Shown here: piece after piece, positions 4,470 to 45,334 of the stretch | Position numbering within the stretch: position 1 is the first letter of the stretch | Layout: every line of letters starts with the position of its first letter | NCBI GenBank assembly: GCA_944372435.1 | Contig: CALVZD010000001.1 | Coordinates: 1 to 60,662 of the forward strand | Origin: an uncultured Clostridia bacterium | Lineage (GTDB): Bacteria; Bacillota; Clostridia; Christensenellales; UBA1242 | Direction: 5' to 3' | Length of the DNA: 60,662 nucleotides | Notes under the pieces: model-generated | The model's input: only the letters and a program-made list of their open reading frames with translations | What the model was told of the DNA's origin: nothing | The model's database searches: none | Translations under genes and position numbers: made by a program

Positions 4470-6170
4470 TTAATATACGATGATTTCATCAAGTTTTTTT
4501 GAAAGATTTTCCTCAGTTGCAAAGATCTTTTCGCCTGTTGCTCGCAGCGTGATTTCGATGTTTCCGTTTTCGATAGTCTTTGGGCTGATGACTATTCGAA
4601 CAGGTATGCCCATGAGCTCGCTATCCGTCAACTTGACGCCAGCTGAGGCGGCGCGGTCATCATACAAAACCTCAAAATTTTCTGCTTGCAGTCTGGCATA
4701 CAATTTTTCGGCCTGAGCTCTGACGCGTTCGTCATCCAGCCTTAATGGGCAAAGATAGATGTGCCATGGCGCAACTGCCATCGGCCAGCATAAGCCTTTT
4801 TCGTCGCTGCTCTCCTCTGCTATGCTTGCAAGGCATCTGCCGACGCCGATCCCATAGCAGCCCATAATTGGGTTCATCGCAGAGCCATCCGGATTGCTGA
4901 CAGCAAGCCCCATCGTTTTGGTGTAGCGCGTGCCGAGCTGAAAAATGTTGCCGATCTCGATACCGCGTTTAACAAGCAACTCATGGCCACAAACTGGGCA
5001 CTTTTCGCCCTCTTTGACTTTGGAGATGTCCACATATCTTTCTGGTTTGACATCTCGAGTCATGCTGACGCCGATAAAGTGATAGCCTTCTCTGTTTGCG
5101 CCTGTCACAAAGCTTTCTAGCCCTTCCAAGGATTTGTCATAATATATCTCAGCGCCCTCAACGTTGAGGTTCACGCAGCCTATGTTGCCTTTGACGAGCC
5201 CACTTTCAGACAGGTCCTTTATTGCGATGTCCGATCCAACCAGAATTTTTAGTTTTGCCTCATTGACCTCTTTGTCGCCGCGCAAAAAGGCAATCACCAC
5301 CCTTTTGCTGTCGCCAACGACGGCATAGCAAACCGCTTTTGCAATTTGTGAGGGGTTTTTGTTGAGGTTTGAGCACACCTCGTCGATTGTTTTGGCCTCG
5401 CCTGTGAAAACCTCGGTTTTGACGCCAAAGATATGCTCGTTTTCCTCTGGAATTGAGGTTGCAACGTCGACATTTGAAGCGGTGTCGCAGTGTGGGCAGA
5501 CTATGATCGTGTCCTCGCCGATATCGGTGAGCAGTTGAAACTCATCAGCAACTTTTCCGCCCATCATGCCTGAGTCAGAATGCACCGAAATCACTTTTTT
5601 CATGCCCATGCGATGAAAGATTCGAAAATATACGTCATACACTTTGCTGTAATAGCTTTCTAGGTCTTTTTGAGTGGCGTGAAAGGAATAGGCGTCTTTC
5701 ATGGTGAACTCTTTCACTCTTATAAGCCCTGCCCTAGGTCTTGCCTCATCGCGATATTTTGTTTGAATTTGATAGATCATAAACGGCAGCTGATCATAGC
5801 TTTTCAAACTGCCAAGAGCTGAGTGCACAGCCGCCTCTTCGTGCGTCATGCCAAGCACCATGTCGTGCCCTGTGCGGTCTTTAAAGCGCAACAGCTCCTC
5901 TGCGATCGAGTTGTATCTGCCCGAAAGCTCCCAAAGCTCGCGAGGCATCACGACTGGGAAAAGGCACTCCTGTCCGTCGAGCGCGTCCATCTCCTCGCGA
6001 ATTATCTGTTGCAGTTTCAGATTGATGCGTTGAGCCGGAGGAAGCAAAGTGTAAATTCCGTTTGACACCTGCTTTATGTAGCCCGCTCTGACAAGATAAG
6101 CGTGGCTTTTTGAGCTGGCTCCCGCAGGATTATCTTTCAGCCTTTCGCCGACAAGTTTTGATAGTTTCAT
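4470..6170 (-). CDS. proS: proline--tRNA ligase
   Basis: ORF trimmed to MKLSKLVGERLKDNP. AGGAGGAAGA SD. The ATG overlaps the xseB TGA (ATGA). Bacterial-type ProRS with an editing insert. Confidence 0.93.
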   Translation of the reverse strand: MKLSKLVGERLKDNPAGASSKSHAYLVRAGYIKQVSNGIYTLLPPAQRINLKLQQIIREEMDALDGQECLFPVVMPRELWELSGRYNSIAEELLRFKDRTGHDMVLGMTHEEAAVHSALGSLKSYDQLPFMIYQIQTKYRDEARPRAGLIRVKEFTMKDAYSFHATQKDLESYYSKVYDVYFRIFHRMGMKKVISVHSDSGMMGGKVADEFQLLTDIGEDTIIVCPHCDTASNVDVATSIPEENEHIFGVKTEVFTGEAKTIDEVCSNLNKNPSQIAKAVCYAVVGDSKRVVIAFLRGDKEVNEAKLKILVGSDIAIKDLSESGLVKGNIGCVNLNVEGAEIYYDKSLEGLESFVTGANREGYHFIGVSMTRDVKPERYVDISKVKEGEKCPVCGHELLVKRGIEIGNIFQLGTRYTKTMGLAVSNPDGSAMNPIMGCYGIGVGRCLASIAEESSDEKGLCWPMAVAPWHIYLCPLRLDDERVRAQAEKLYARLQAENFEVLYDDRAASAGVKLTDSELMGIPVRIVISPKTIENGNIEITLRATGEKIFATEENLSKKLDEIIVY

Positions 6171-6385
6171 TCTTCCTCCTCTATTTTTAGTCCGTCGATC
6201 GTGTTTTTGATCGTCAGCATTTTGCCTTTGACAAATTTCAAACTTTCGTGGCAAAATTTGATCAGCTCGCCGCCCTCTTCAAAAAGTTTGGAAGCCTCAT
6301 CCAAGGTTGTGCTTTGAGAGGACAACTTTTCGGTTATTTCACCGAGCCTTTCAATAGCCTTTTCATATGTCAATTTTTCAGTCAT
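6167..6385 (-). CDS. xseB: exodeoxyribonuclease VII small subunit
   Basis: 72 aa. MTEKLTYEKAIERLGEITEKLSS is the XseB pattern. Overlaps xseA. Confidence 0.9.
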   Translation of the reverse strand: MTEKLTYEKAIERLGEITEKLSSQSTTLDEASKLFEEGGELIKFCHESLKFVKGKMLTIKNTIDGLKIEEEE

Positions 6386-21243: not shown

Positions 21244-21702
21244 TTAAAATTTTATCACAGGCACGATGTGCGCGATAAGTTCTCGGTTTATTGTGAGCGG
21301 TTTGTCCTTTTGCAAAATTGTCACTTGTGTTTGCGAAAAGCTTTCAAGAGTGCCGACAAACTTTTTTTCTCCGTCCAACTTTTTGAACAGTGTGATTTCA
21401 ACCTCTTTGCCCAAGTTGCGTTTAAAGTCGCGCTCGGTTTTGATAGGGCTGTCTATCCCCGGCGAGCTGACGCTCAAAATGTATGGCTTGTCGTCGGTTG
21501 GGTTGAGTTCGTCCAAAATTGGGTCGATCGCCTTGGTCACTTTTTCGCAATCTTCGATTGTGATTGGCGCGTCGGCATCGATCGTGAAGATCAGGTTCAT
21601 GCCGTCTGCCAGTTTTTGATAGCTGACTTCGAGCAACTCATATCCCATTTTTTCGATGATCGGTGTGAGCTCTTTTTCACAAATATCTTTGACTTTTGAC
21701 AA
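21244..21702 (-). CDS. rimP: ribosome maturation factor RimP
   Basis: 152 aa. TTG start with a GGAGGAAA SD. VSSPGIDSPIK motif. Confidence 0.9.
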   Translation of the reverse strand: MSKVKDICEKELTPIIEKMGYELLEVSYQKLADGMNLIFTIDADAPITIEDCEKVTKAIDPILDELNPTDDKPYILSVSSPGIDSPIKTERDFKRNLGKEVEITLFKKLDGEKKFVGTLESFSQTQVTILQKDKPLTINRELIAHIVPVIKF

Positions 21703-21722: not shown

Positions 21723-21745
21723 GAAGTGGGCGAGCCGCCCACTTC
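21723..21745 (-). promoter_or_regulatory. GC-rich hairpin in the rimP-nusA-infB leader (candidate attenuator)
   Basis: GAAGTGGGCG-gct-CGCCCACTTC is a perfect 10-bp stem lying between the -10 box and the SD. It is followed only by AUUUGU. Confidence 0.5.
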
Positions 21746-21837: not shown

Positions 21838-23367
21838 TTAACCCTCTTCACTGAGTTTGAGCAGAACTTTTGCGGTTGCAAACGCATCGTTGTAGGCTCT
21901 GTGGGCGCCTGAAAGGTCGATCCCAAGTGCTGCGGCAACGGTTGTGAGTTTTGAGTTGTTGGTTTTGAGGTGTTTGCTGCGCGCTATCATCAATACATCG
22001 AGATTTTCGTTTTGCAGCGTCAGCCCCACCTTTTGATATGCCTTTCGCAAAAACTTGTTGTCAAAATCGGTGTTGTTGTAGCCTGAAATTATGCAGCCCT
22101 TGCAAAAGTTGTAAAAGTCGACTATCACATCCTCGATCTTCGGCGCGTTTGCCACCATGTCGTTTGTGATGTGATTGATGCGCGAAGCTTCTTCTGGGAT
22201 AGGCTGAGTTGGCTTGACAAAGGTCGAAAACTTTTTGGTGATCTTGCCCTTTTCGATTTTAATCGCGCCGATTTCGATAATCTCGCATATTTCAGGATTC
22301 AGCCCTGTCGTTTCAAGGTCATACACGACGATATCTCTTGAAGCGATAGGCTCCTTGTAGGTCGGATCCTTGACAAAAAGGTTTTCCTGACGATTTTCGT
22401 GATAGTCCTCTGCCAGCACAACCGGAGCTTTGTAAAAAATAGCCTCTTCGTCTTCATGAGGCGGAGTTTTGATTTGAGCGAGGGTCATCGCTGAGATATA
22501 GTAAGTCATTCTGCCTGAAAGCCCAAGTTTTATGTCGCCCAAACACAAAAAGCTGAGCCCGTCTTGCAAGGCGGCAAGTTTTGGCTGATTGGTTTTGGTG
22601 GAAAAATAGATGCACTCGATTTGTTTTTCGTCGTCGAGCACGAAGCTTGCATACTGCTTTTCCTGCCCTGCCTGTTTGCCTTTTTTTGCAGTGAAAGTTT
22701 TGATTTCAACCTTTGAAATTTTGCCAAAAAGGATGACAGAGGTTTTTGGTTTTGTGTTGTTTTTGATCTGTTCAGGAAAAGGCGCGATATCTTTGCCAAA
22801 AAGTTTTTTGATTGGAGTGACTTCATATCGCGGATTTTTTTTGGCCGCAATTTGATATTTTATTGGAGCGATTTCATCTTGGATTTGATAGTTGTCGCTT
22901 TTTTCTGCCACGATTTCAAAGTTGCCCAAAAAATTGTTTTCCAAAAATTCAAGCAGTTTCAGTTTGACGAGTCTGCTTTCATAATAATCTTTGACGAGCC
23001 TGTTCATATGCAAAATTATCGTGGTTTTTTGCGGCTCCTTTTTGATCTCTATCTGCTCTTCGGAAAGCTCAGCCGCAATCGCTCTGAAATTTTTAGTTAA
23101 ATATGCCAAAAGGTCGCGCCTTAAAAGCCGCTCGTCAAGAAAGCTCTTTTTAAACTTGACACGGATGCGGCTATTGAGCTCAACGCGTGACTTGACAAAG
23201 TCTTCGATCTGCTTTCGCTGCTCGTCGGTGATCTCGCTCATTGATTCAGGATATAAAAAAGTGAAGACGCACTCCTCTTGCGAAAGGTCGAGCGCCACAC
23301 CATACAGCCTTAAAAAATCGAATTTTCCGCCCTCAAAGGTTTTGAGAGCTTGCGTTAGTTCATCCAC
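21838..23367 (-). CDS. PolC-like N-terminal/OB-fold protein fused to a DEDDh 3'-5' exonuclease; no PHP or polymerase domains
   Basis: Exo I VVYDLETTGL, Exo II ISGYNNTDFDNKFL, Exo III AHRAYNDAFATAKVL. An OB-like segment spans roughly residues 200-300. It occupies the polC position between rseP and rimP. Confidence 0.65.
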   Translation of the reverse strand: MDELTQALKTFEGGKFDFLRLYGVALDLSQEECVFTFLYPESMSEITDEQRKQIEDFVKSRVELNSRIRVKFKKSFLDERLLRRDLLAYLTKNFRAIAAELSEEQIEIKKEPQKTTIILHMNRLVKDYYESRLVKLKLLEFLENNFLGNFEIVAEKSDNYQIQDEIAPIKYQIAAKKNPRYEVTPIKKLFGKDIAPFPEQIKNNTKPKTSVILFGKISKVEIKTFTAKKGKQAGQEKQYASFVLDDEKQIECIYFSTKTNQPKLAALQDGLSFLCLGDIKLGLSGRMTYYISAMTLAQIKTPPHEDEEAIFYKAPVVLAEDYHENRQENLFVKDPTYKEPIASRDIVVYDLETTGLNPEICEIIEIGAIKIEKGKITKKFSTFVKPTQPIPEEASRINHITNDMVANAPKIEDVIVDFYNFCKGCIISGYNNTDFDNKFLRKAYQKVGLTLQNENLDVLMIARSKHLKTNNSKLTTVAAALGIDLSGAHRAYNDAFATAKVLLKLSEEG

Positions 23368-23376
23368 AGTTAAATT

Positions 23377-24513
23377 TTACAAGATAAAATGCAAAATGTC
23401 AACAATTATCACAAACCCAAACAATATGCACAGCCCAACAAAGTGGATCATGTTTTCTAGGCTGCGTTTGATTGGCTTTTTTCTTATCCATTCTATCGTT
23501 GTGAAAACGACATGCGCGCCATCAAGAGCTGGAATTGGCAACAGGTTAAAGATGGCAAGGTTGGCTGAAATTGCAGGAATCAGAATCAGCAGGTTCAGCC
23601 AGTTTGTTTGAGTTGCCGATGCTATCATCGTGATTGTCGAAATCGGTCCGCCGACAGCGGATATTGGCAGCTGGAAGGTTATAAGCAGCCAAAGCGATTT
23701 GAGCACCACCCATGCAAAGCCAAAGGCGACCTCCCAGCACCTGCCGAGAGCTTCACCAAACGAGTAGACATACGGCGAGTATGAAAAGCAGAGATAGATG
23801 TTTTCTGACGAGAGAGTCGAGGTGTTTTCATAATAAGTTCTTATCACCTGAAATTGCAGCTGAACGGTTTGACTTGTGCCGTTGCGATCGACAGTGGCTT
23901 CAAACGAATAGCCGTCAAGAATGCCGTTTGGCGCCTGCTCAATGCCGCCATATGTGTTTTCAATAAACTCCAGCGCCTCGTTTTGTTTTTGCGCTATCAT
24001 ATTTTGAAAGGTGTCGCCAAACGCAAAATCGACCTTTGTGCCGTCGATGTGTGTGACTATATCCCCTTCTTGCAGCTGGGTTTGCTGATAGGTTTGGCCG
24101 CCAATTTGCACCGAATTTGAGCGAATTTGAGGCACATCATATCCAGCCGTGCAGAGCAAAATTAGTGAAAACAGCACCGCTGTCAAAAAGTTCATCGTGA
24201 TGCCTGCAAGAAAAACGATGATCCTCTTCCACGGTTTTTGCGCGTTGAAGCTGTCTGAGGCAGGCTTTTCGTTTTTATCTTCTTCGCCTTTGAACGCACA
24301 GTAGCCGCCGAGTGGAAAAATGCGCAGCGAAATAAGCTCTCCGCGTTTATTTTTCCGCTGAAAAATAGGCTTGCCAAAGCCTATCGAAAACTCGGTGATC
24401 TTGAATTTTAAAATGCGTCCTGCAATGTAGTGGCCAAGCTCATGGACAAGCACCATGAAAAGCAAAATGACCACTGCGATGACGATATAGAGGACATATG
24501 ATAAAACCTGCAT
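23377..24513 (-). CDS. rseP: RIP (site-2) zinc metalloprotease RseP/YluC
   Basis: HELGHYIAGR and the C-terminal NLLPIPALDG motif, with a PDZ insert. Confidence 0.9.
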   Translation of the reverse strand: MQVLSYVLYIVIAVVILLFMVLVHELGHYIAGRILKFKITEFSIGFGKPIFQRKNKRGELISLRIFPLGGYCAFKGEEDKNEKPASDSFNAQKPWKRIIVFLAGITMNFLTAVLFSLILLCTAGYDVPQIRSNSVQIGGQTYQQTQLQEGDIVTHIDGTKVDFAFGDTFQNMIAQKQNEALEFIENTYGGIEQAPNGILDGYSFEATVDRNGTSQTVQLQFQVIRTYYENTSTLSSENIYLCFSYSPYVYSFGEALGRCWEVAFGFAWVVLKSLWLLITFQLPISAVGGPISTITMIASATQTNWLNLLILIPAISANLAIFNLLPIPALDGAHVVFTTIEWIRKKPIKRSLENMIHFVGLCILFGFVIIVDILHFIL

Positions 24514-32220: not shown

Positions 32221-33948
32221 CTAGATTTTTTTAGATTTTATCTCTTGCAGCAGTCTTTCGACAAATTCAGCCAGTTTTAGCCCGCTTTTGTTTTCATTTC
32301 CCCTGCCGCGGATTGAAATAGTCTCGTTTGCAACCTCCTCGTCGCCGACGATGATTTGATAAGGAATTTTCATCGATGCGGCTTCGCGGATTTTGTAGCC
32401 GACCTTTTCGTTTCGGTCGTCAAGGCTTGCACGAATGCCGAGAGCTTTAAGCTCGTCGAGGATTTTGCTGCCATAGTCGTTTGCCCTGTCGGTGATTGGA
32501 AGAATTCGCACCTGTTCAGGAGCAAGCCAAACAGGGAAAGCGCCTGCAAAGTGCTCAATCAAAATGCCCATAAACCTTTCGATCGAGCCATAAACTACGC
32601 GGTGAATCATGATTGGCCTGTGTTTTGCGCCATCTTCGCCGGTGTATTCAAGCTCAAAACGCAGTGGCAACTGAAAGTCGAGTTGAATTGTTCCGCACTG
32701 CCAAGTTCTGCCAATTGCATCGTGAAGGTGGAAGTCTATCTTTGGGCCATAGAACGCCCCATCACCCTCATTTATCACATAGTCGAGCTTTAAGTCGTCA
32801 AGCGCGGCTTTCAGTGCGTCGGTTGCAAGCTCCCAGTCTTCATCCGAGCCCATGCTGTTTTCAGGGCGCGTGGAAAGCTCGACACTGTAAGTGAAGCCAA
32901 AAAGGCTGTAAACTTCGTTTATGAGCTTCACCACCCCTTTGATTTCATCTTTGATTTGAGCTGGCGTCATAAATATATGCGCGTCGTCTTGCGTGAAACA
33001 GCGCACTCGCAAAAGTCCGCCCAGCTCGCCTGATTTTTCGTGACGATGAACGATGCCAAGCTCGCCCACCCTCATAGGCAGGTCGCGATAGGAGTGCGGT
33101 GAATTTTTGTAAACCAAAATTCCGCCTGGGCAGTTCATAGGTTTGATTGCAAACAGAGTGTCGTCGATTTTGGTGGTGTACATATTGTTTTTGTAGTGAT
33201 CCCAGTGACCTGAGGTCTGCCACAGGTGCTGCGACAGCATGATCGGCGTTGAAATTTCCACATAGCCGGCTTTGGTGTGCAGATCGCGCCAATAGTCGAT
33301 CAGCAAGTTTTTTATTATCATCCCGTTTGGAAGAAAGAACGGAAAGCCAGGCCCCTCAGGTGAAATCATAAAAAGCCCAAGCTCTTTGCCAAGCTTGCGG
33401 TGATCGCGCTTTTTGGCCTCTTCCAGCATTGCGATATGCTCGGCGAGCTGCTTTTTGTCTGCATAGCCATAGGCATAAACGCGTTGCAGCATTTTGTTCT
33501 TTTCGTTACCGCGCCAATAAGCGCCGTTGACTGCGTGAATTTTGAAGGCCGCATTTTGAAGTTCGCGTGTCGAATTTACATGAGGGCCGCGACAAAGATC
33601 GACAAAGTCGTCGCCGAGATAGTATAGCGAAATCTCCTCGCCTTCTGGCAGCTCGCGGATGAGCTCTTCTTTGTATTCATTGCCTTCAAAAAGCTTGGCA
33701 GCCTCTTTTCGCGAAACCACTTTGCGTTCAAATTTTTCGCCTTTGTTTATGATCTCCCGCATCTTTTTTTCGATGAGAGGAAACTCCTCTGGCAATATCG
33801 ACTCGTCAAAGTCGATGTCATAATAAAAGCCGTCGTCGACAGGAGGCCCTATCGTCAGCTTTGTTTTTGGATGCAGGCTCATCAGCGCTTTTGCCAGAAC
33901 GTGCGCAAGTGAGTGACGCATCACAAAAAGTTTGTCATTTTTTTCCAT
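32221..33948 (-). CDS. thrS: threonine--tRNA ligase lacking the N-terminal TGS domain
   Basis: Trimmed to MEKNDKLFVMRHSLAHVLAKAL with an AAAGGAGAA SD. Upstream ORF codons overlap the T-box. Class II core and anticodon domain are present. 575 aa. Confidence 0.93.
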   Translation of the reverse strand: MEKNDKLFVMRHSLAHVLAKALMSLHPKTKLTIGPPVDDGFYYDIDFDESILPEEFPLIEKKMREIINKGEKFERKVVSRKEAAKLFEGNEYKEELIRELPEGEEISLYYLGDDFVDLCRGPHVNSTRELQNAAFKIHAVNGAYWRGNEKNKMLQRVYAYGYADKKQLAEHIAMLEEAKKRDHRKLGKELGLFMISPEGPGFPFFLPNGMIIKNLLIDYWRDLHTKAGYVEISTPIMLSQHLWQTSGHWDHYKNNMYTTKIDDTLFAIKPMNCPGGILVYKNSPHSYRDLPMRVGELGIVHRHEKSGELGGLLRVRCFTQDDAHIFMTPAQIKDEIKGVVKLINEVYSLFGFTYSVELSTRPENSMGSDEDWELATDALKAALDDLKLDYVINEGDGAFYGPKIDFHLHDAIGRTWQCGTIQLDFQLPLRFELEYTGEDGAKHRPIMIHRVVYGSIERFMGILIEHFAGAFPVWLAPEQVRILPITDRANDYGSKILDELKALGIRASLDDRNEKVGYKIREAASMKIPYQIIVGDEEVANETISIRGRGNENKSGLKLAEFVERLLQEIKSKKI

Positions 33949-33969
33949 AGTGTTCTCCTTTTTACGGGC

Positions 33970-34174
33970 AAAATAAAAATCGCCCTTAAAATTTAAGGAC
34001 GATTTGATAAACCGCGGTTCCACCTTAATTGCACAAAAAATTTGTGCCACTTTGATTTTGTTTTGCTTCATCGCCGCAAGTGGTTTCGCTTTCCCTCTCC
34101 GCCAAAAGTTTTTCACCAACCAACTTTTCTCTGGATGCTTTTAAGGGCGCTACTTGTCTTTCAGCTCAGCATAT
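33970..34174 (-). promoter_or_regulatory. T-box riboswitch (Thr, ACC specifier) with an intrinsic terminator
   Basis: Reverse strand: AATTAAGGTGGAACCGCGG T-box motif (34030-34012); terminator AUCGUCCUUA-aauuu-UAAGGGCGAU + UUUUAUUUU (34003-33970); GCGAA-ACC-A specifier context (ACC at 34084-34082); AGAGA box. Confidence 0.88.
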
Positions 34175-42357: not shown

Positions 42358-43551
42358 CTATTCGCCTTTTATTATAAGGCAATTCTGCAAATTTTTAAGT
42401 TCTTTCAAATTTATGAAATTTTTTCCGAAAAATTTGGTTTTGTCAAGCTGCAAATAGCTCTGTCCCTCAGTTTTTGCAATGTTTATCGTTTTCCATTCTC
42501 TTCCGTCAAAAAGCTGCAAAGAAAGCAGATTTTCAAGCCCAGCAAACACAAAATTTTTGCCGTTTTTTATCACAAAGTTTTCTTTGAGCTTGCCATACTC
42601 AATTTCGCTTTCGCGTTCCTCTTTGCCGCTGAGCCAAGACAAATATATTCGCTCAGGCAGAGTTTGATTGAGACGGCGCTGCAAAGCCTTGTCTTTCGAC
42701 TTTATGCGCACGTTAAACCTCTCCTGCACTTGCCTGTCAGCCTCTGCCATAAACATCTCCATCTCGCCTTGATTTGACAGCACAAACTTTTGATCGCCAA
42801 AATTGAAAAAATGCACACGCTTTTGTTTTGGTTTTAGTGTCACCTCACACAGCACATTTATGCAAGCGTGCGTGCAGTTTTCGACGCCATCGATGCAGGA
42901 AAACACAAACTTTGACTTTCGACACGAAAAGTTGAAGTAGGTTTTGTCCAACGAAAAAAGGTCGGTCACTTCGATGTGATTTGCCTTTTTTTGAAAAAAA
43001 TAATATCCGCGTTTTAAAGGAATGTTGATGCAAAAGTTGAGAGTTTTTGGTGAGTCTGAAAGGTTTAAAAACTCAAAATAAAAGCTTCTTCCGCACATGA
43101 CGAATTCCTTGGCGTAAAATTTTATGTCGTTCTCAATCCCGCTTGATTGAAGATAAAAGTTATGCAAACATAAGTTTTGTCTGACTCCGTTTATTTCAAC
43201 ATAATTTTCTTCGGCTTTCAGGTGATAGCCTGAATGGCAGCGATAATTTATGTTGAGTTTGTTTATGTCGGTGTTGTTTTTTAAAATTATCGCGCCGAGC
43301 TCTTTTTGGGCGCGTTTGTTTTCTTCTGGCAGAACAAGGTTAAAATCACACACAGATTTTGCGCGTTTGAAGCATTTAAAAAGCGGTCGCGAGAGAGTTT
43401 TGTCGAACTTGAAAACAGGCAGCGAAGGGTCGACGCCGAGCTTTATCAGCCTGTCGAAGTCGACATCAGTGCTGTAAAGGATAGGCGCGTGAAACCTAAG
43501 CCTATTTAGGATCAAATTTGTCATATTGAAAAGATAATCGCGTTTTTTCAT
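42358..43551 (-). CDS. hypothetical Cys/Phe/Asn/Lys-rich protein, 397 aa
   Basis: The tracked ORF was trimmed because its first 11 codons overlap the rnpB terminator. I recognise no domain. Confidence 0.5.
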   Translation of the reverse strand: MKKRDYLFNMTNLILNRLRFHAPILYSTDVDFDRLIKLGVDPSLPVFKFDKTLSRPLFKCFKRAKSVCDFNLVLPEENKRAQKELGAIILKNNTDINKLNINYRCHSGYHLKAEENYVEINGVRQNLCLHNFYLQSSGIENDIKFYAKEFVMCGRSFYFEFLNLSDSPKTLNFCINIPLKRGYYFFQKKANHIEVTDLFSLDKTYFNFSCRKSKFVFSCIDGVENCTHACINVLCEVTLKPKQKRVHFFNFGDQKFVLSNQGEMEMFMAEADRQVQERFNVRIKSKDKALQRRLNQTLPERIYLSWLSGKEERESEIEYGKLKENFVIKNGKNFVFAGLENLLSLQLFDGREWKTINIAKTEGQSYLQLDKTKFFGKNFINLKELKNLQNCLIIKGE

Positions 43552-43570
43552 AACAAAAGTTTTGCCATAA

Positions 43571-43599
43571 AAAGAAAAAAGCAAACCATAAAAGTTTGC
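43571..43599 (-). terminator. terminator of rnpB
   Basis: Reverse strand: GCAAAC-ttttatg-GTTTGC followed by TTTTTTCTTTTT. Confidence 0.75.
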
Positions 43600-43606
43600 T
43601 TTGGTC

Positions 43607-43938
43607 AGCCAAACATAAGCCGAGTTCTGTGTTCTGTGGTCATCTATCTAGGCCTGTTGTTGCCAGCAGGCTCAAGCGTTGCTTTTGGAAGGCGTGAAAG
43701 ACGGCACATTGCCTTCACTTAAACTTGCATCGGGTGGGGTTTACAGTGACGAGAGATGTCTCCACCTCTCCGGTGAGCTCTTACCTCACCTTTCCATCCT
43801 TGCCTTTTTAGGGGCGGTTTATTTCTGTTGCACTTTCCTTAGAGTCGCCTCCACCGGCCGTTAGCCGGCACCCTGTCTTTTGATGCCCGGACTTTCCTCA
43901 CTTTGCTTTTAAGGCAAACCGCGACCACAAGTTTGACT
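43607..43938 (-). ncRNA. rnpB: RNase P RNA
   Basis: Reverse strand carries GAGGAAAGTCCGGGC, GGAAAGTGCAACAGAAA..CCGCC, GGTGAGGTAAGAGCTCACC and ACAGAACTCGGCTTATG. P1 pairs AGTCAAAC (5') with GTTTGGCT (3'). Ends are approximate. Confidence 0.9.
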
Positions 43939-43947
43939 GACGAGATT

Positions 43948-43978: not shown

Positions 43979-45334
43979 TCAGTTGACGGTGAAGAGCAGT
44001 TTTGGCTGTTTTTTGTCGCTAGCAAAGCCCTGAATTTCGCCGTCTTGCGATATTTTGAGTGCGACGCCGTATTTTGACAGCGCCATTGCGGCCGCTTTTC
44101 TTCCTCCACCGCTGATAGAGCCAGCTTCGATTTTGAGTATCGCTCCGGCGGTTATGATCGTGCCATCAAAGTCGACGATGGTGGCGCCGTCCATTGCTAT
44201 AATCTCCTCTCTGATCTGTCTGCCGAGTTCATGGAATTTTTTGCCCTGGATGATCTGCTTTAAGCATATCGATTTGAAGTAGCAGTTTTTTGCCAAAAAG
44301 TTTTCAAAATCGTCGCTGTAATATTTTTTCATCTCTTCGGCGTTGTTGATGTTGTAAAGCTTGTCTGCCTCTTCAAGCTGCTGCTCGCGTTTGATGTTGT
44401 AATATTTTTCTTCGATTATGTCGCTTGCGTTGACATGTGAAAGCGCCTGCTCAGCCATGTCGCGATTCAAGTAGACGATTATTCCGCCTGAATATTTGAA
44501 CGAGCAATCGAGAGAGGTCAAATAAATCGCTCTTCGAACTTCACGCAAAGAGTGAGACGAGCGATATGAAAGCAGCTGAATCACCTCTTCGTGGCTGTAA
44601 ATGTTCCACTTTCCTCGCCTTTTTGCAAACATCAAAGTGCGGTTTTTGAAAATGAGCAGGTCGCCGCTTTCAGTGAGCACGATCCCAACTTTGCGGTCGT
44701 TGCAATATCTTGCCACATAGTTAAAATCGTTTGGCGAAGTTGTGGCATAGTTTCTCACCTTGTCAAGCGACACATAGCCGGTCAGATAGCCCTCTCTGTT
44801 GAACTCGACAAATGAGTGCCTGCCGTCTGAAAGCAAAACAAAAAAGTCGGTCGAGATGATGTTGGAATAATGCAGATTTTTTTCGTCTGCGTTTTCGGAA
44901 AGGTTTAAGATGATGCCAAAATCGACGGCTTTGCCCTCGTAGGTGCGATGGCTCCATGTTGTGAGAGCGTTGACAAGCCCAAGCATAACCGAAGATGCCG
45001 AAGACGCCACACTGTCGCAAACCGCCTTTTCCACTGCTTTTTCGTGGAGAGTAAGCTCGTAGGTCGGATCCAAAACTGCCGAGTCATTGATCTGGCTCAG
45101 CTCTTTTAATATGTTTTTTAATAGTGAAATTTCAAATGGTTGAAAAGCCCTGCCGCGTTTGATGATAAATCTGTAATCGGCGGACTTGTTTGGTTTGATC
45201 AAGAGCGAGTTTTGCTTGCCGATTGCAACTTCGGATTCTCTTGCGCTCGACTCCTCTTCACCCAAAAGAATAGATCCGGTGAATAAAGGCAAAATCAATT
45301 TTGTCAGCACAACATAAAACTTTTCTTTCTCCAA
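43979..45334 (-). CDS. divergent DisA_N/DAC (diadenylate cyclase)-fold protein with a large N-terminal region
   Basis: The C-terminus SGGIIVYLNR ... MDGATIVDFDGTIITAGAILKI...GGGRKAAAMALSKYGVALKISQDGEIQGF parallels GALIV ... HDGAVII..AA...GTRHRAA...vvVSEEtG. An upstream segment (GIILN..LLSDGRH..GIVLTESGDLLIF) looks like a degenerate second copy. TTG start. Confidence 0.55.
   Translation of the reverse strand: MEKEKFYVVLTKLILPLFTGSILLGEEESSARESEVAIGKQNSLLIKPNKSADYRFIIKRGRAFQPFEISLLKNILKELSQINDSAVLDPTYELTLHEKAVEKAVCDSVASSASSVMLGLVNALTTWSHRTYEGKAVDFGIILNLSENADEKNLHYSNIISTDFFVLLSDGRHSFVEFNREGYLTGYVSLDKVRNYATTSPNDFNYVARYCNDRKVGIVLTESGDLLIFKNRTLMFAKRRGKWNIYSHEEVIQLLSYRSSHSLREVRRAIYLTSLDCSFKYSGGIIVYLNRDMAEQALSHVNASDIIEEKYYNIKREQQLEEADKLYNINNAEEMKKYYSDDFENFLAKNCYFKSICLKQIIQGKKFHELGRQIREEIIAMDGATIVDFDGTIITAGAILKIEAGSISGGGRKAAAMALSKYGVALKISQDGEIQGFASDKKQPKLLFTVN

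What the first reader, a model, noticed from the sequence alone, without database searches (positions are those of the whole stretch)
21838..23367. The polC slot holds a 509-aa PolC-like N-domain + OB + proofreading exonuclease with no polymerase
In Bacillota the block uppS-cdsA-rseP-(proS)-polC-rimP-nusA-ylxR-ylxQ-infB is strongly conserved. Here the gene between rseP and rimP encodes only 509 aa.

Its C-terminal ~170 aa carry all three DEDDh motifs: VVYDLETTGL, GYNNTDFDNKFL and HRAYNDAFATAKVL. Residues ~200-300 read like the PolC OB fold, compared with PolC [30 protein letters not shown].. The N-terminus resembles the PolC N-terminal domain in layout.

I see no PHP motifs and no Pol III alpha core. 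The options are a remnant of polC, or a stand-alone proofreading/OB subunit working with a polymerase encoded elsewhere. The second case would be an unusual replisome organisation for this phylum.
Basis: partly seen in the sequence, partly recalled or inferred. Interest (0 to 1): 0.7.

Follow-up and report, generated by a model that had tools for sequence, protein, structure and literature searches.

The report
Polymerase-less PolC: a stand-alone proofreader
In a large group of uncultured gut Clostridia, the place where the main replicative DNA polymerase gene (polC) normally sits holds a conserved 509-aa protein that keeps PolC's front end and proofreading nuclease, has lost the polymerase, and has gained what looks like a sliding-clamp binding motif.

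Summary
Window 21838-23367 (-) is an intact 509-aa ORF between rseP and rimP, the polC slot. It has an active-looking DEDDh exonuclease whose best matches are PolC exonuclease domains, and no PHP or Pol III core.

Profile-profile comparison shows that residues 1-340 are homologous and collinear to the PolC N-terminal region, NI/NII plus OB (probability 98%, E 1e-13).

It is not a decaying remnant:
- dN/dS is 0.06.
- About 476 clusters at 50% identity share the N-region. The best 150 are all 573 aa or shorter.
- Synteny holds in about 30 loci.

I also found a Q-x-x-[LIM]-F motif in the disordered OB-exo linker, kept in 40 of 42 members. It matches the beta-clamp-binding consensus; real PolCs carry that motif at their C-terminus.

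Best reading: a PolC-derived, clamp-tethered proofreader acting in trans with a polymerase encoded elsewhere.

Which polymerase is unresolved. It could be DnaE1 alone, an exonuclease-less PolC (known in Clostridia) or a full PolC elsewhere.

I found no description of this architecture in the papers searched. GenBank labels members "3'-5' exoribonuclease".

The parts
21838..23367 (-). Whole CDS, 509 aa, GTG start, stop at 21838-21840: polymerase-less PolC derivative (NI/NII-like, OB, linker with clamp-binding-like motif, DEDDh exonuclease).
   Evidence: The start is supported by alignment with homologues that begin at the same residue with ATG.
23074..23367 (-). aa 1-98: first N-terminal subdomain (helix, beta-beta-alpha-beta-alpha). 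It corresponds to PolC NI.
   Evidence: AF2 pLDDT about 86. hhalign NI alone gives P = 0.0016 and lands on PolC columns 10-115; aa 1-165 give probability 85%, E 5.8e-6. Pfam PF14480 is not detected.
22900..23055 (-). aa 105-156: second N-terminal subdomain (beta-beta-alpha-alpha-beta). It corresponds to PolC NII.
   Evidence: hhalign NII alone gives P = 0.0059 and lands on PolC columns 115-172.
22471..22827 (-). aa 181-299: OB fold of PolC type, with invariant R180-Y181, P196-x-P198-E199 and the KKGK loop.
   Evidence: PF01336 in relatives, E about 1e-6. hhalign against the PolC OB gives probability 96.9%, E 1.8e-10. Foldseek to 9qpc_A covers 395 columns. tblastn of a Roseburia PolC, residues 270-621, aligns directly onto member L094.
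22336..22470 (-). aa 300-344: low-confidence, presumably flexible linker that replaces the N-terminal part of the PolC PHP domain.
   Evidence: pLDDT 52-78. hhalign aligns the conserved 'HKxVVFPE' stretch with the first PHP strand 'KRVELHxHT' of PolC. No PHP hit in Pfam.
22375..22389 (-). aa 327-331, QENLF: candidate beta-clamp-binding motif (Q-x-x-[LIM]-F), 15 residues before the first exonuclease strand.
   Evidence: Q is kept in 41 of 42 members and F in 41 of 42, while flanking columns keep 8-28 of 42. The consensus QL[SD]LF / QxxLF is taken from PMC12309361. Clostridial PolCs carry the motif at their C-terminus and none has it at this junction. Binding is inferred, not shown.
21853..22335 (-). 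[quoted passage not shown]
   Evidence: RNase_T E 3.5e-35. T. maritima PolC exonuclease 2p1j E 1.3e-43 and E. faecium PolC 9qpc E 5.8e-32. Catalytic residues present in 42 of 42 members.
23374..23402 (-). Promoter-like site TTGACA-17-TAAAAT (11 of 12 matches) inside the 3' end of rseP. Its -10 element ends 6 nt before the GTG start.
   Evidence: consensus scan only; sequence. Function was not tested.
23377..24513 (-). rseP (M50 protease), upstream flank of the slot.
   Evidence: Conserved upstream neighbour in 12 of 18 GTDB loci. In the second subgroup ispG lies between rseP and the gene.
21244..21702 (-). rimP, downstream flank of the slot and first gene of rimP-nusA-ylxR-infB.
   Evidence: Conserved downstream neighbour in 15 of 18 GTDB loci and in the metagenome loci long enough to show it.

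Best explanation
The gene is the in-place descendant of polC. It lost the PHP domain and the whole polymerase core but kept, under strong purifying selection, the PolC N-terminal domains, the OB fold and the DEDDh proofreading exonuclease. It also acquired an internal clamp-binding-type motif.

Proposed mechanism:
- The protein docks on the beta sliding clamp (DnaN) through QENLF in its flexible linker.
- The OB fold and the tau-domain-V-like N-domains hold it on the primer-template and the replisome.
- The exonuclease removes misincorporated 3' nucleotides for a C-family polymerase encoded elsewhere.

This would be an E. coli epsilon-like trans proofreader rebuilt from PolC parts. I think the most likely partner is DnaE1, with the PolC polymerase lost in this clade.

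Shown: the architecture, homology to PolC, positional orthology, selection, and conservation of the catalytic residues and the motif.

Inferred: clamp binding, action at the fork, and the identity of the partner polymerase.
For: Homology to PolC:
- The exonuclease domain matches PolC exonucleases best.
- The N-region is collinear with the PolC N-region, hhalign probability 98.1%, E 1.2e-13. The OB alone gives 96.9% and the N-domains alone 85%. Reversed-sequence controls give P 0.17-0.55.
- Foldseek's top hit is PolC 9qpc over 395 columns.

Position:
- The gene sits as rseP-[gene]-rimP or rseP-ispG-[gene]-rimP in 17 of 18 GTDB species representatives and in 9 metagenome loci.
- Full PolCs of other Clostridia sit after rseP or ispG in the same slot.

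Functionality:
- dN/dS is 0.059, from 38 synonymous and 9 non-synonymous differences.
- The DEDDh residues are present in 42 of 42 members.
- 476 clusters at 50% identity match the N-region, and the best 150 are all 573 aa or shorter.

Clamp motif:
- QxxLF-type motif in 40 of 42 members, inside an otherwise variable low-pLDDT linker.
- The consensus is from PMC12309361.
- PolCs carry QLSLF at the C-terminus that this protein has lost.

Plausibility from the literature:
- Some Clostridia have only DnaE1, and clostridial DnaE1 keeps a putative epsilon-binding surface (PMC3919608).
- Nine DnaE1-only 'Firmicutes' genomes are listed in the supplement of PMC12926913.
- PMC12926913 cites B. subtilis work in which the PolC exonuclease complements DnaE proofreading in trans.
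Against: - I could not check whether the same genomes carry a polC or which dnaE they carry.
- No biochemical evidence exists for clamp binding or for DNA rather than RNA substrates.
- About 95% of genes in the window share one strand. That is typical of PolC-bearing genomes, which show 78% bias against 58% without PolC (PMC11040001).
- The N-domain homology rests on profile-profile comparison only. Pfam NI/NII models and HMM-versus-PDB searches do not detect it, and no PolC N-domain structure exists to compare with.
- Monophyly of the family's exonuclease domain has weak support, 43% NJ bootstrap.
Confidence: 0.45

Rival explanations
1. Accessory paralog. The genomes keep a complete PolC at another locus, by relocation or acquisition. 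The slot copy was trimmed to a clamp-binding exonuclease with a side role, for example proofreading specifically for DnaE1 or processing 3' ends in repair.
For: - PolC is present in nearly all Bacillota surveyed (PMC3919608).
- Strong one-strand gene orientation in the window fits PolC-type genomes.
- polC is often outside the canonical slot in other Clostridia, including Blautia and a large clade of short PolCs near dnaX-recR.
Against: - It needs duplication or acquisition plus relocation, and then retention of a second N-domain, OB and exonuclease set.
- The family's exonuclease domains do not group with the short, relocated PolCs.
- No PolC was seen in any of about 30 flanks of up to 10 kb on each side.
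- Matching contig lengths between the family and short-PolC hit lists gave only one chance match, on different contigs.
Confidence: 0.25
2. Subfunctionalised pair. The partner is an exonuclease-less PolC (NTD-OB-PHP-Pol3-HhH) encoded elsewhere. After duplication, one copy kept the polymerase and the other kept the exonuclease.
For: - 6% of PolCs lack the Exo insertion, and all of those are in Clostridia or Negativicutes (PMC3919608). Acidaminococcus PolC, 1191 aa, is one example.
- The protein here is the exact complement. It has the exonuclease and lacks PHP and Pol3.
Against: - It is not a simple gene fission. The exonuclease is inserted within PHP, and the PHP N-part has been excised here.
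- An exonuclease-less PolC would be expected to keep the canonical slot.
- No such gene was seen in the flanks.
- Co-occurrence could not be tested.
Confidence: 0.15
3. RNA-processing enzyme. This would be a 3'-5' exoribonuclease, as GenBank labels MAG members, acting on rRNA or mRNA together with the adjacent rimP-nusA-infB genes.
For: - nr name 'MAG: 3'-5' exoribonuclease [Clostridia bacterium]'.
- The Pfam family RNase_T includes RNases.
- The gene lies next to a ribosome-maturation and transcription operon.
Against: - The name is generic domain-based annotation.
- The closest sequence and structure relatives are the PolC, DnaQ and DinG DNA exonucleases.
- The slot neighbourhood is simply inherited from polC.
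- The clamp-binding-type motif and the PolC-type OB fold point to DNA replication.
Confidence: 0.05
4. Decaying remnant of polC with no function.
For: It is shorter than PolC by about 900 aa and lies in the polC slot.
Against: - dN/dS is 0.059 in both halves.
- The reading frame is intact and 505-530 aa long across hundreds of clusters down to about 26% identity.
- The catalytic residues are invariant.
Confidence: 0.02

Closest known systems
PolC (Gram-positive type DNA polymerase III alpha; TIGR01405 / PRK00448)
   Same: - The N-terminal NI/NII domains, OB fold and DEDDh exonuclease are homologous and in the same order.
- The chromosomal slot is the same.
   Different: - It lacks both halves of PHP, the palm, thumb and fingers, (HhH)2 and the C-terminal QLSLF.
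- It is 509 aa against 1320-1640 aa.
- It has an internal QxxLF-type motif in the OB-exo linker that PolCs lack.
E. coli-type epsilon subunit (DnaQ), the stand-alone Pol III proofreader
   Same: - It is a separately encoded DEDDh exonuclease. Foldseek to 2ido and 1j53 gives rmsd about 1.9 A.
- A clamp-binding motif lies in the linker directly next to the exonuclease domain. For epsilon this is from my own knowledge of the QTSMAF motif.
- It passes the general dnaq domain model TIGR00573.
   Different: - The extra parts are N-terminal and PolC-derived (NI/NII and OB), instead of epsilon's C-terminal alpha-binding tail.
- It fails the proteobacterial dnaQ equivalog, 71.6 bits against 222.7.
- Its origin from polC is independent.
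Exonuclease-less PolC variants of Clostridia and Negativicutes (Timinskas et al. 2014, PMC3919608)
   Same: They show that PolC modules have been separated in the same classes of bacteria. They are the reciprocal architecture, NTD-OB-PHP-Pol3-HhH.
   Different: Those proteins keep the polymerase and lose the exonuclease. This one keeps the exonuclease and loses the polymerase. Whether the two ever occur in one genome is unknown.
Other Bacillota DEDDh paralogs (DinG-exo fusions, PRK06807 / PRK07740 3'-5' exonucleases)
   Same: The exonuclease domain is similar.
   Different: All of these score far below their curated cutoffs, and none has the N-terminal PolC-like region.

Membership tests
PolC-type DNA polymerase III (NF001688 / TIGR01405) | Full-length match above the curated cutoff, including the PHP and Pol III alpha core. 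| tested here: not met
   139 bits against a cutoff of 873, and 133 against 1043. Only model positions 418-586 match. No PF02811 or PF07733 hit.
PolC-type DNA polymerase III (NF001688 / TIGR01405) | N-terminal NI/NII domains followed by an OB fold, homologous to those of PolC. | tested here: met
   hhalign probability 98.1%, E 1.2e-13, collinear. The OB alone gives 96.9% and the N-domains alone 85%. The Pfam NI/NII models do not fire.
PolC-type DNA polymerase III (NF001688 / TIGR01405) | C-terminal beta-clamp motif QLSLF. | tested here: not met
   The protein ends at the last exonuclease helix. Its only QxxLF-type motif is internal, at aa 327-331.
DnaQ / epsilon-family DEDDh exonuclease (TIGR00573, PF00929) | Exo I, II and III motifs with D, E, D, H and D, and a score above the cutoff. 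| tested here: met
   TIGR00573 106.3 bits against 71.5. PF00929 122 bits against 24. Catalytic residues conserved in 42 of 42 members.
Proteobacterial epsilon subunit (TIGR01406 dnaQ_proteo) | Equivalog-level score, and a C-terminal alpha-binding segment. | tested here: not met
   71.6 bits against 222.7. There is no C-terminal extension after aa 505.
Beta-clamp-binding proteins | A QL[SD]LF / QxxLF pentapeptide in an accessible, flexible segment. | tested here: met
   QENLF at 327-331 lies in a linker of pLDDT 52-78. The motif is kept in 40 of 42 members. The consensus is from PMC12309361.
Beta-clamp-binding proteins | Physical binding to DnaN. | not testable with these tools
   This needs fluorescence polarisation, pull-down, or a complex prediction with the cognate DnaN.
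Replisome proofreading subunit (works like epsilon) | Absence of another DEDDh proofreader on the replicase, or co-occurrence with a polymerase that lacks one (DnaE1-only or Exo-less PolC). | not tested
The flanks and about 80 kb around the window hold no C-family polymerase.
Anti-phage defence DEDDh proteins (PADLOC) | A full-length match to a defence-system protein. | tested here: not met
   Only the generic exonuclease domain (aa 346-508) matches. The N-region has no match in phages or plasmids.

The most novel reading that the evidence does not exclude
A deep, species-rich clade of uncultured, spore-forming gut Clostridia has lost the PolC polymerase altogether and replicates with DnaE1. 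It would have recycled the leftover front half of PolC into a clamp-tethered trans-acting proofreader. That is an E. coli-like alpha-epsilon-beta organisation re-invented inside Bacillota. Such bacteria would be intrinsically insensitive to PolC-targeting antibiotics such as ibezapolstat.
Probability: 0.4. Interest if true: 0.85.

Novelty: new variant of a known kind. Interest (0 to 1): 0.7.

Why it matters
[quoted passage not shown] Timinskas et al. 2014 ask whether DnaE1 might be the main replicase there.

A widespread natural "polymerase-deleted PolC", kept under selection in the polC locus, is a ready-made experiment on three points:
- What the PolC N-domains, OB fold and exonuclease do on their own.
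- Whether a DEDDh proofreader can serve DnaE1 in trans.
- How replisome modules are reshuffled in evolution.

It also matters in practice. PolC is the target of ibezapolstat-class drugs (PMC12592400). Gut commensals without a PolC polymerase would be spared by them.

The family is currently annotated only as a generic "3'-5' exoribonuclease" or left unnamed, so it is invisible to polymerase surveys that require a polymerase domain.

Tried and rejected
- **Pfam and NCBIfam on the N-region.** No NI/NII hit in 8 members, although a Roseburia PolC control hit both.
- **HMM of the N-region against PDB sequences.** Nothing, not even PolC.
- **Foldseek of the N-domain model.** Only generic tandem alpha/beta domains (BON, PrgH, KH) at E 2e-4 or weaker. 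No PolC N-domain structure exists, and tau domain V was not among the top 50.
- **Looking for the partner polymerase.**
  - Flanks of 18 GTDB and 9 metagenome loci hold none.
  - The window itself and about 8 kb beyond each end hold none.
The single match, 9383 bp, was two different contigs.
  - I tried thrS as a shared marker between a short-PolC contig and family contigs. thrS turned out to be replaced between close relatives, so it is unusable.
- **Exonuclease-domain NJ tree.** The family is one clade, but with only 43% bootstrap and an unresolved sister group. An earlier Biopython version timed out.
- **Literature searches for an existing description.** None found.
- **Rejected readings.**
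  - Defence system.
  - Mobile element.
  - Pseudogene.
Full report
**What is there**

Window 21838-23367 on the - strand is an intact ORF of 509 codons with a GTG start.

Pfam detects only RNase_T (DEDDh) at aa 347-502, E 3.5e-35, and no PHP or Pol III alpha domain. The best NCBIfam match is the PolC equivalog PRK00448. Only its positions 418-586 of 1445 match, and the score is 139 bits against a cutoff of 873.

The neighbours are frr, uppS, cdsA and rseP upstream. Downstream are rimP, nusA, ylxR, a 96-aa ORF and infB. proS lies 17 kb away.

There is no C-family polymerase in the 60-kb window. There is none in about 8 kb beyond either end, read from the matching ENA scaffold.

**It is a real, large family, not a remnant**

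A word-indexed search found at least 120 clusters (90% identity) of 507-524 aa that cover the whole protein, down to 38% identity.

A second, more distant subgroup was seeded with the member from L019. It adds more than 120 clusters of 505-514 aa.

An exhaustive HMMER search with only the N-terminal 318 residues found 476 representative clusters (50% identity) at E <= 1e-3, and 328 at E <= 1e-10. The best 150 are all 573 aa or shorter, so none is a PolC-length protein.

Against a 97%-identical strain there are 38 synonymous and 9 non-synonymous differences:

| Region | dN/dS |
|---|---|
| Whole gene | 0.059 |
| N-domains + OB | 0.073 |
| Linker + exonuclease | 0.043 |

All five DEDDh catalytic residues are kept in 42 of 42 aligned members.

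**Relation to PolC**

The exonuclease domain matches the T. maritima PolC exonuclease (2p1j, E 1.3e-43) and E. faecium PolC (9qpc, E 5.8e-32) best.

An AF2 model has mean pLDDT 84. Its pTM of 0.42 reflects flexibly linked domains. It shows:
- two small alpha/beta subdomains, aa 1-98 and 105-156;
- an OB barrel, aa 183-299;
- a low-confidence linker, aa 300-344;
- the exonuclease.

Foldseek's top PDB hit is PolC 9qpc_A, E 4.8e-17, with 395 aligned columns. That covers OB plus exonuclease.

PF01336 (OB) fires at aa 211-296 in many relatives, at the same marginal score as in a genuine PolC control.

The Pfam NI/NII models do not fire. The PolC N-domain is unresolved in all PolC structures, so Foldseek of the N-domain returns only generic folds.

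Profile-profile comparison does detect the relationship. I compared a 42-member family alignment with the N-regions of 38 clostridial PolCs taken from fetched loci:

| Query region | Probability | E or P value | Where it lands on PolC |
|---|---|---|---|
| aa 2-343 | 98.1% | E 1.2e-13 | columns 6-406, collinear |
| OB alone | 96.9% | E 1.8e-10 | OB region |
| aa 1-165 alone | 85% | E 5.8e-6 | NI/NII region |
| NI alone | not recorded | P 0.0016 | cognate place |
| NII alone | not recorded | P 0.0059 | cognate place |
| Reversed-sequence controls | not recorded | P 0.17-0.55 | not applicable |

A first run with the 24-member alignment was weaker but had the same geometry.

About 80 residues are missing relative to PolC. 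They correspond to the N-terminal part of PHP. The conserved 'HKxVVFPE' of the linker aligns with the first PHP strand.

**Position**

One genome-contig scan returned 18 species representatives with a 507-528 aa member. All are uncultured Clostridia or 'Christensenellaceae' MAGs.

- Twelve have rseP-[gene]-rimP.
- Five have ispG-[gene]-rimP.
- Two have dxr-rseP-ispG-[gene].
- One (L008) is elsewhere.

Nine further metagenome loci agree.

In PolC-bearing Clostridia from the same scan, polC follows frr-uppS-cdsA-rseP in about 30 of 44 loci. It precedes rimP-nusA in those long enough to show it. L063 and L025 have rseP-ispG-polC.

The gene is therefore the positional ortholog of polC.

Flanking-gene identities set the carriers apart as their own deep clade. 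nusA is 52-93% identical to the window's, against 44-49% for PolC carriers. rseP is 35-86% identical, against 26-35%.

In an NJ tree of exonuclease domains, the family is a single clade. Bootstrap support is only 43%, and the family is not sister to any sampled PolC group.

In the otherwise variable, low-pLDDT linker, Q327 and F331 are each kept in 41 of 42 members. Position 330 is L, I or M. Flanking columns keep only 8-28 of 42.

Q-x-x-[LIM]-F, here QENLF, matches the beta-clamp-binding consensus QL[SD]LF / QxxLF (PMC12309361).

Genuine PolCs carry QLSLF at their extreme C-terminus. That holds in B. subtilis and in nearly all 44 clostridial PolCs I extracted. None has such a motif at the OB/PHP/exo junction.

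The truncated protein has thus lost PolC's clamp motif and carries one 15 residues upstream of its exonuclease domain. This is the arrangement known, in mirror image, for E. coli epsilon (my own knowledge).

**How it most likely works**

The protein would be tethered to DnaN by the linker motif. It would be positioned by the OB fold and by the N-domains. Those N-domains are described as distant relatives of tau domain V (Timinskas & Venclovas 2011, cited in PMC3919608). The exonuclease would then edit 3' ends for a polymerase encoded elsewhere.

Trans proofreading of DnaE by the PolC exonuclease has a B. subtilis precedent, cited in PMC12926913.

**Which polymerase?**

I could not test this. 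Three scenarios remain.

1. **DnaE1 only.** Timinskas et al. 2014 state that some Clostridia have only DnaE1. They also state that clostridial DnaE1 keeps a clamp motif, an active PHP and a putative epsilon-binding surface. The 2026 survey's supplement lists nine DnaE1-only 'Firmicutes', including Gottschalkia acidurici and Desulforudis. In-place truncation is the most parsimonious route given the synteny.
2. **An exonuclease-less PolC elsewhere.** Six percent of PolCs lack the Exo insertion, and all of them are in Clostridia or Negativicutes. The present protein is the reciprocal architecture.
3. **A complete PolC elsewhere.** This is favoured by the near-universality of PolC in Bacillota and by the window's roughly 95% one-strand gene orientation. 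PolC genomes average 78% strand bias against 58% without PolC.

My estimates are 0.45, 0.15 and 0.25 respectively.

**Known or new?**

No Pfam or NCBIfam model covers the N-region or the whole protein. GenBank MAG entries call it "3'-5' exoribonuclease".

Full-text searches, and the two comprehensive C-family surveys, do not describe it. The 2026 survey explicitly discarded sequences without a reliable polymerase domain.

It is not a defence or mobile gene.

I class it as a new variant of a known kind: a stand-alone DEDDh proofreader derived from PolC. The more radical reading, a PolC-less clostridial clade, is open at about 40%.

**Limits**

- hhalign statistics are for single pairwise comparisons of alignments that I built.
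- The PolC set is clostridial only.
- The clamp motif is sequence inference.
- Taxonomy rests on submitter labels.
- The top-80 and top-120 caps of the scans mean that absence of PolC from my lists says nothing about the genomes.

Noticed in passing
window 32221-34119 (-); L002 1-1134; L083 446-2197: thrS of the window and its positional ortholog in a close relative (L002; nusA 93% and rpsB 91% identical) are only 49% identical. L002's ThrS is 72% identical to a ThrS next to a short PolC on an unrelated contig (L083). This looks like xenologous replacement of thrS.
   Followed up: partly
window 23374-23402 (-): A near-consensus promoter-like site, TTGACA-17-TAAAAT (11 of 12), lies inside the end of rseP. 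Its -10 element ends 6 nt before the GTG start of the 509-aa gene, and no Shine-Dalgarno sequence is visible. The transcript may be leaderless or have a very short leader.
   Followed up: no
window ~21723-21745 (-): A perfect 10-bp hairpin, GAAGTGGGCG-GCT-CGCCCACTTC, lies between a TTGCAT...TATAAT promoter-like site and the rimP ribosome-binding site. No T-run follows it. It may be a leader element of the rimP-nusA-infB operon.
   Followed up: no
It is nevertheless conserved at 36-66% identity in the related loci.
   Followed up: no
window 42358-43584 and 43979-45334 (-), flanking 43601-43940: Two ORFs of 408 and 451 aa have no Pfam match. They flank a class A RNase P RNA gene.
   Followed up: no
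window 4470-6254 (-): proS is not in the rseP-polC slot as in Bacillus or Halanaerobiales. It sits after nusB-xseA-xseB, downstream of the spoIIIA operon.
   Followed up: partly
L018, L020, L026, L083 (PolC loci): There is a very large, tightly conserved clade of 'short' PolCs, 1335-1366 aa, with more than 120 clusters at 66-77% identity. They have only about 90 aa before the OB fold and lie outside the canonical slot. In L020 the gene sits between purL and a convergent dnaX-ybaB-recR cluster.
   Followed up: partly
L169 2540-4927 (about 3 kb beyond the window's right end on ENA ERZ28615658 scaffold_127): A 795-aa LigD with LigD_N, ATP-ligase and Prim-Pol domains lies there. This is an NHEJ-type repair polymerase-ligase in a spore-forming gut Clostridium.
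   Followed up: no
window, whole: Almost every annotated gene over 60 kb is on the - strand; the gene calls on the matching scaffold show only three on the other strand. The - strand is also richer in G and A. This pattern is usually linked to PolC-type replication.
   Followed up: partly
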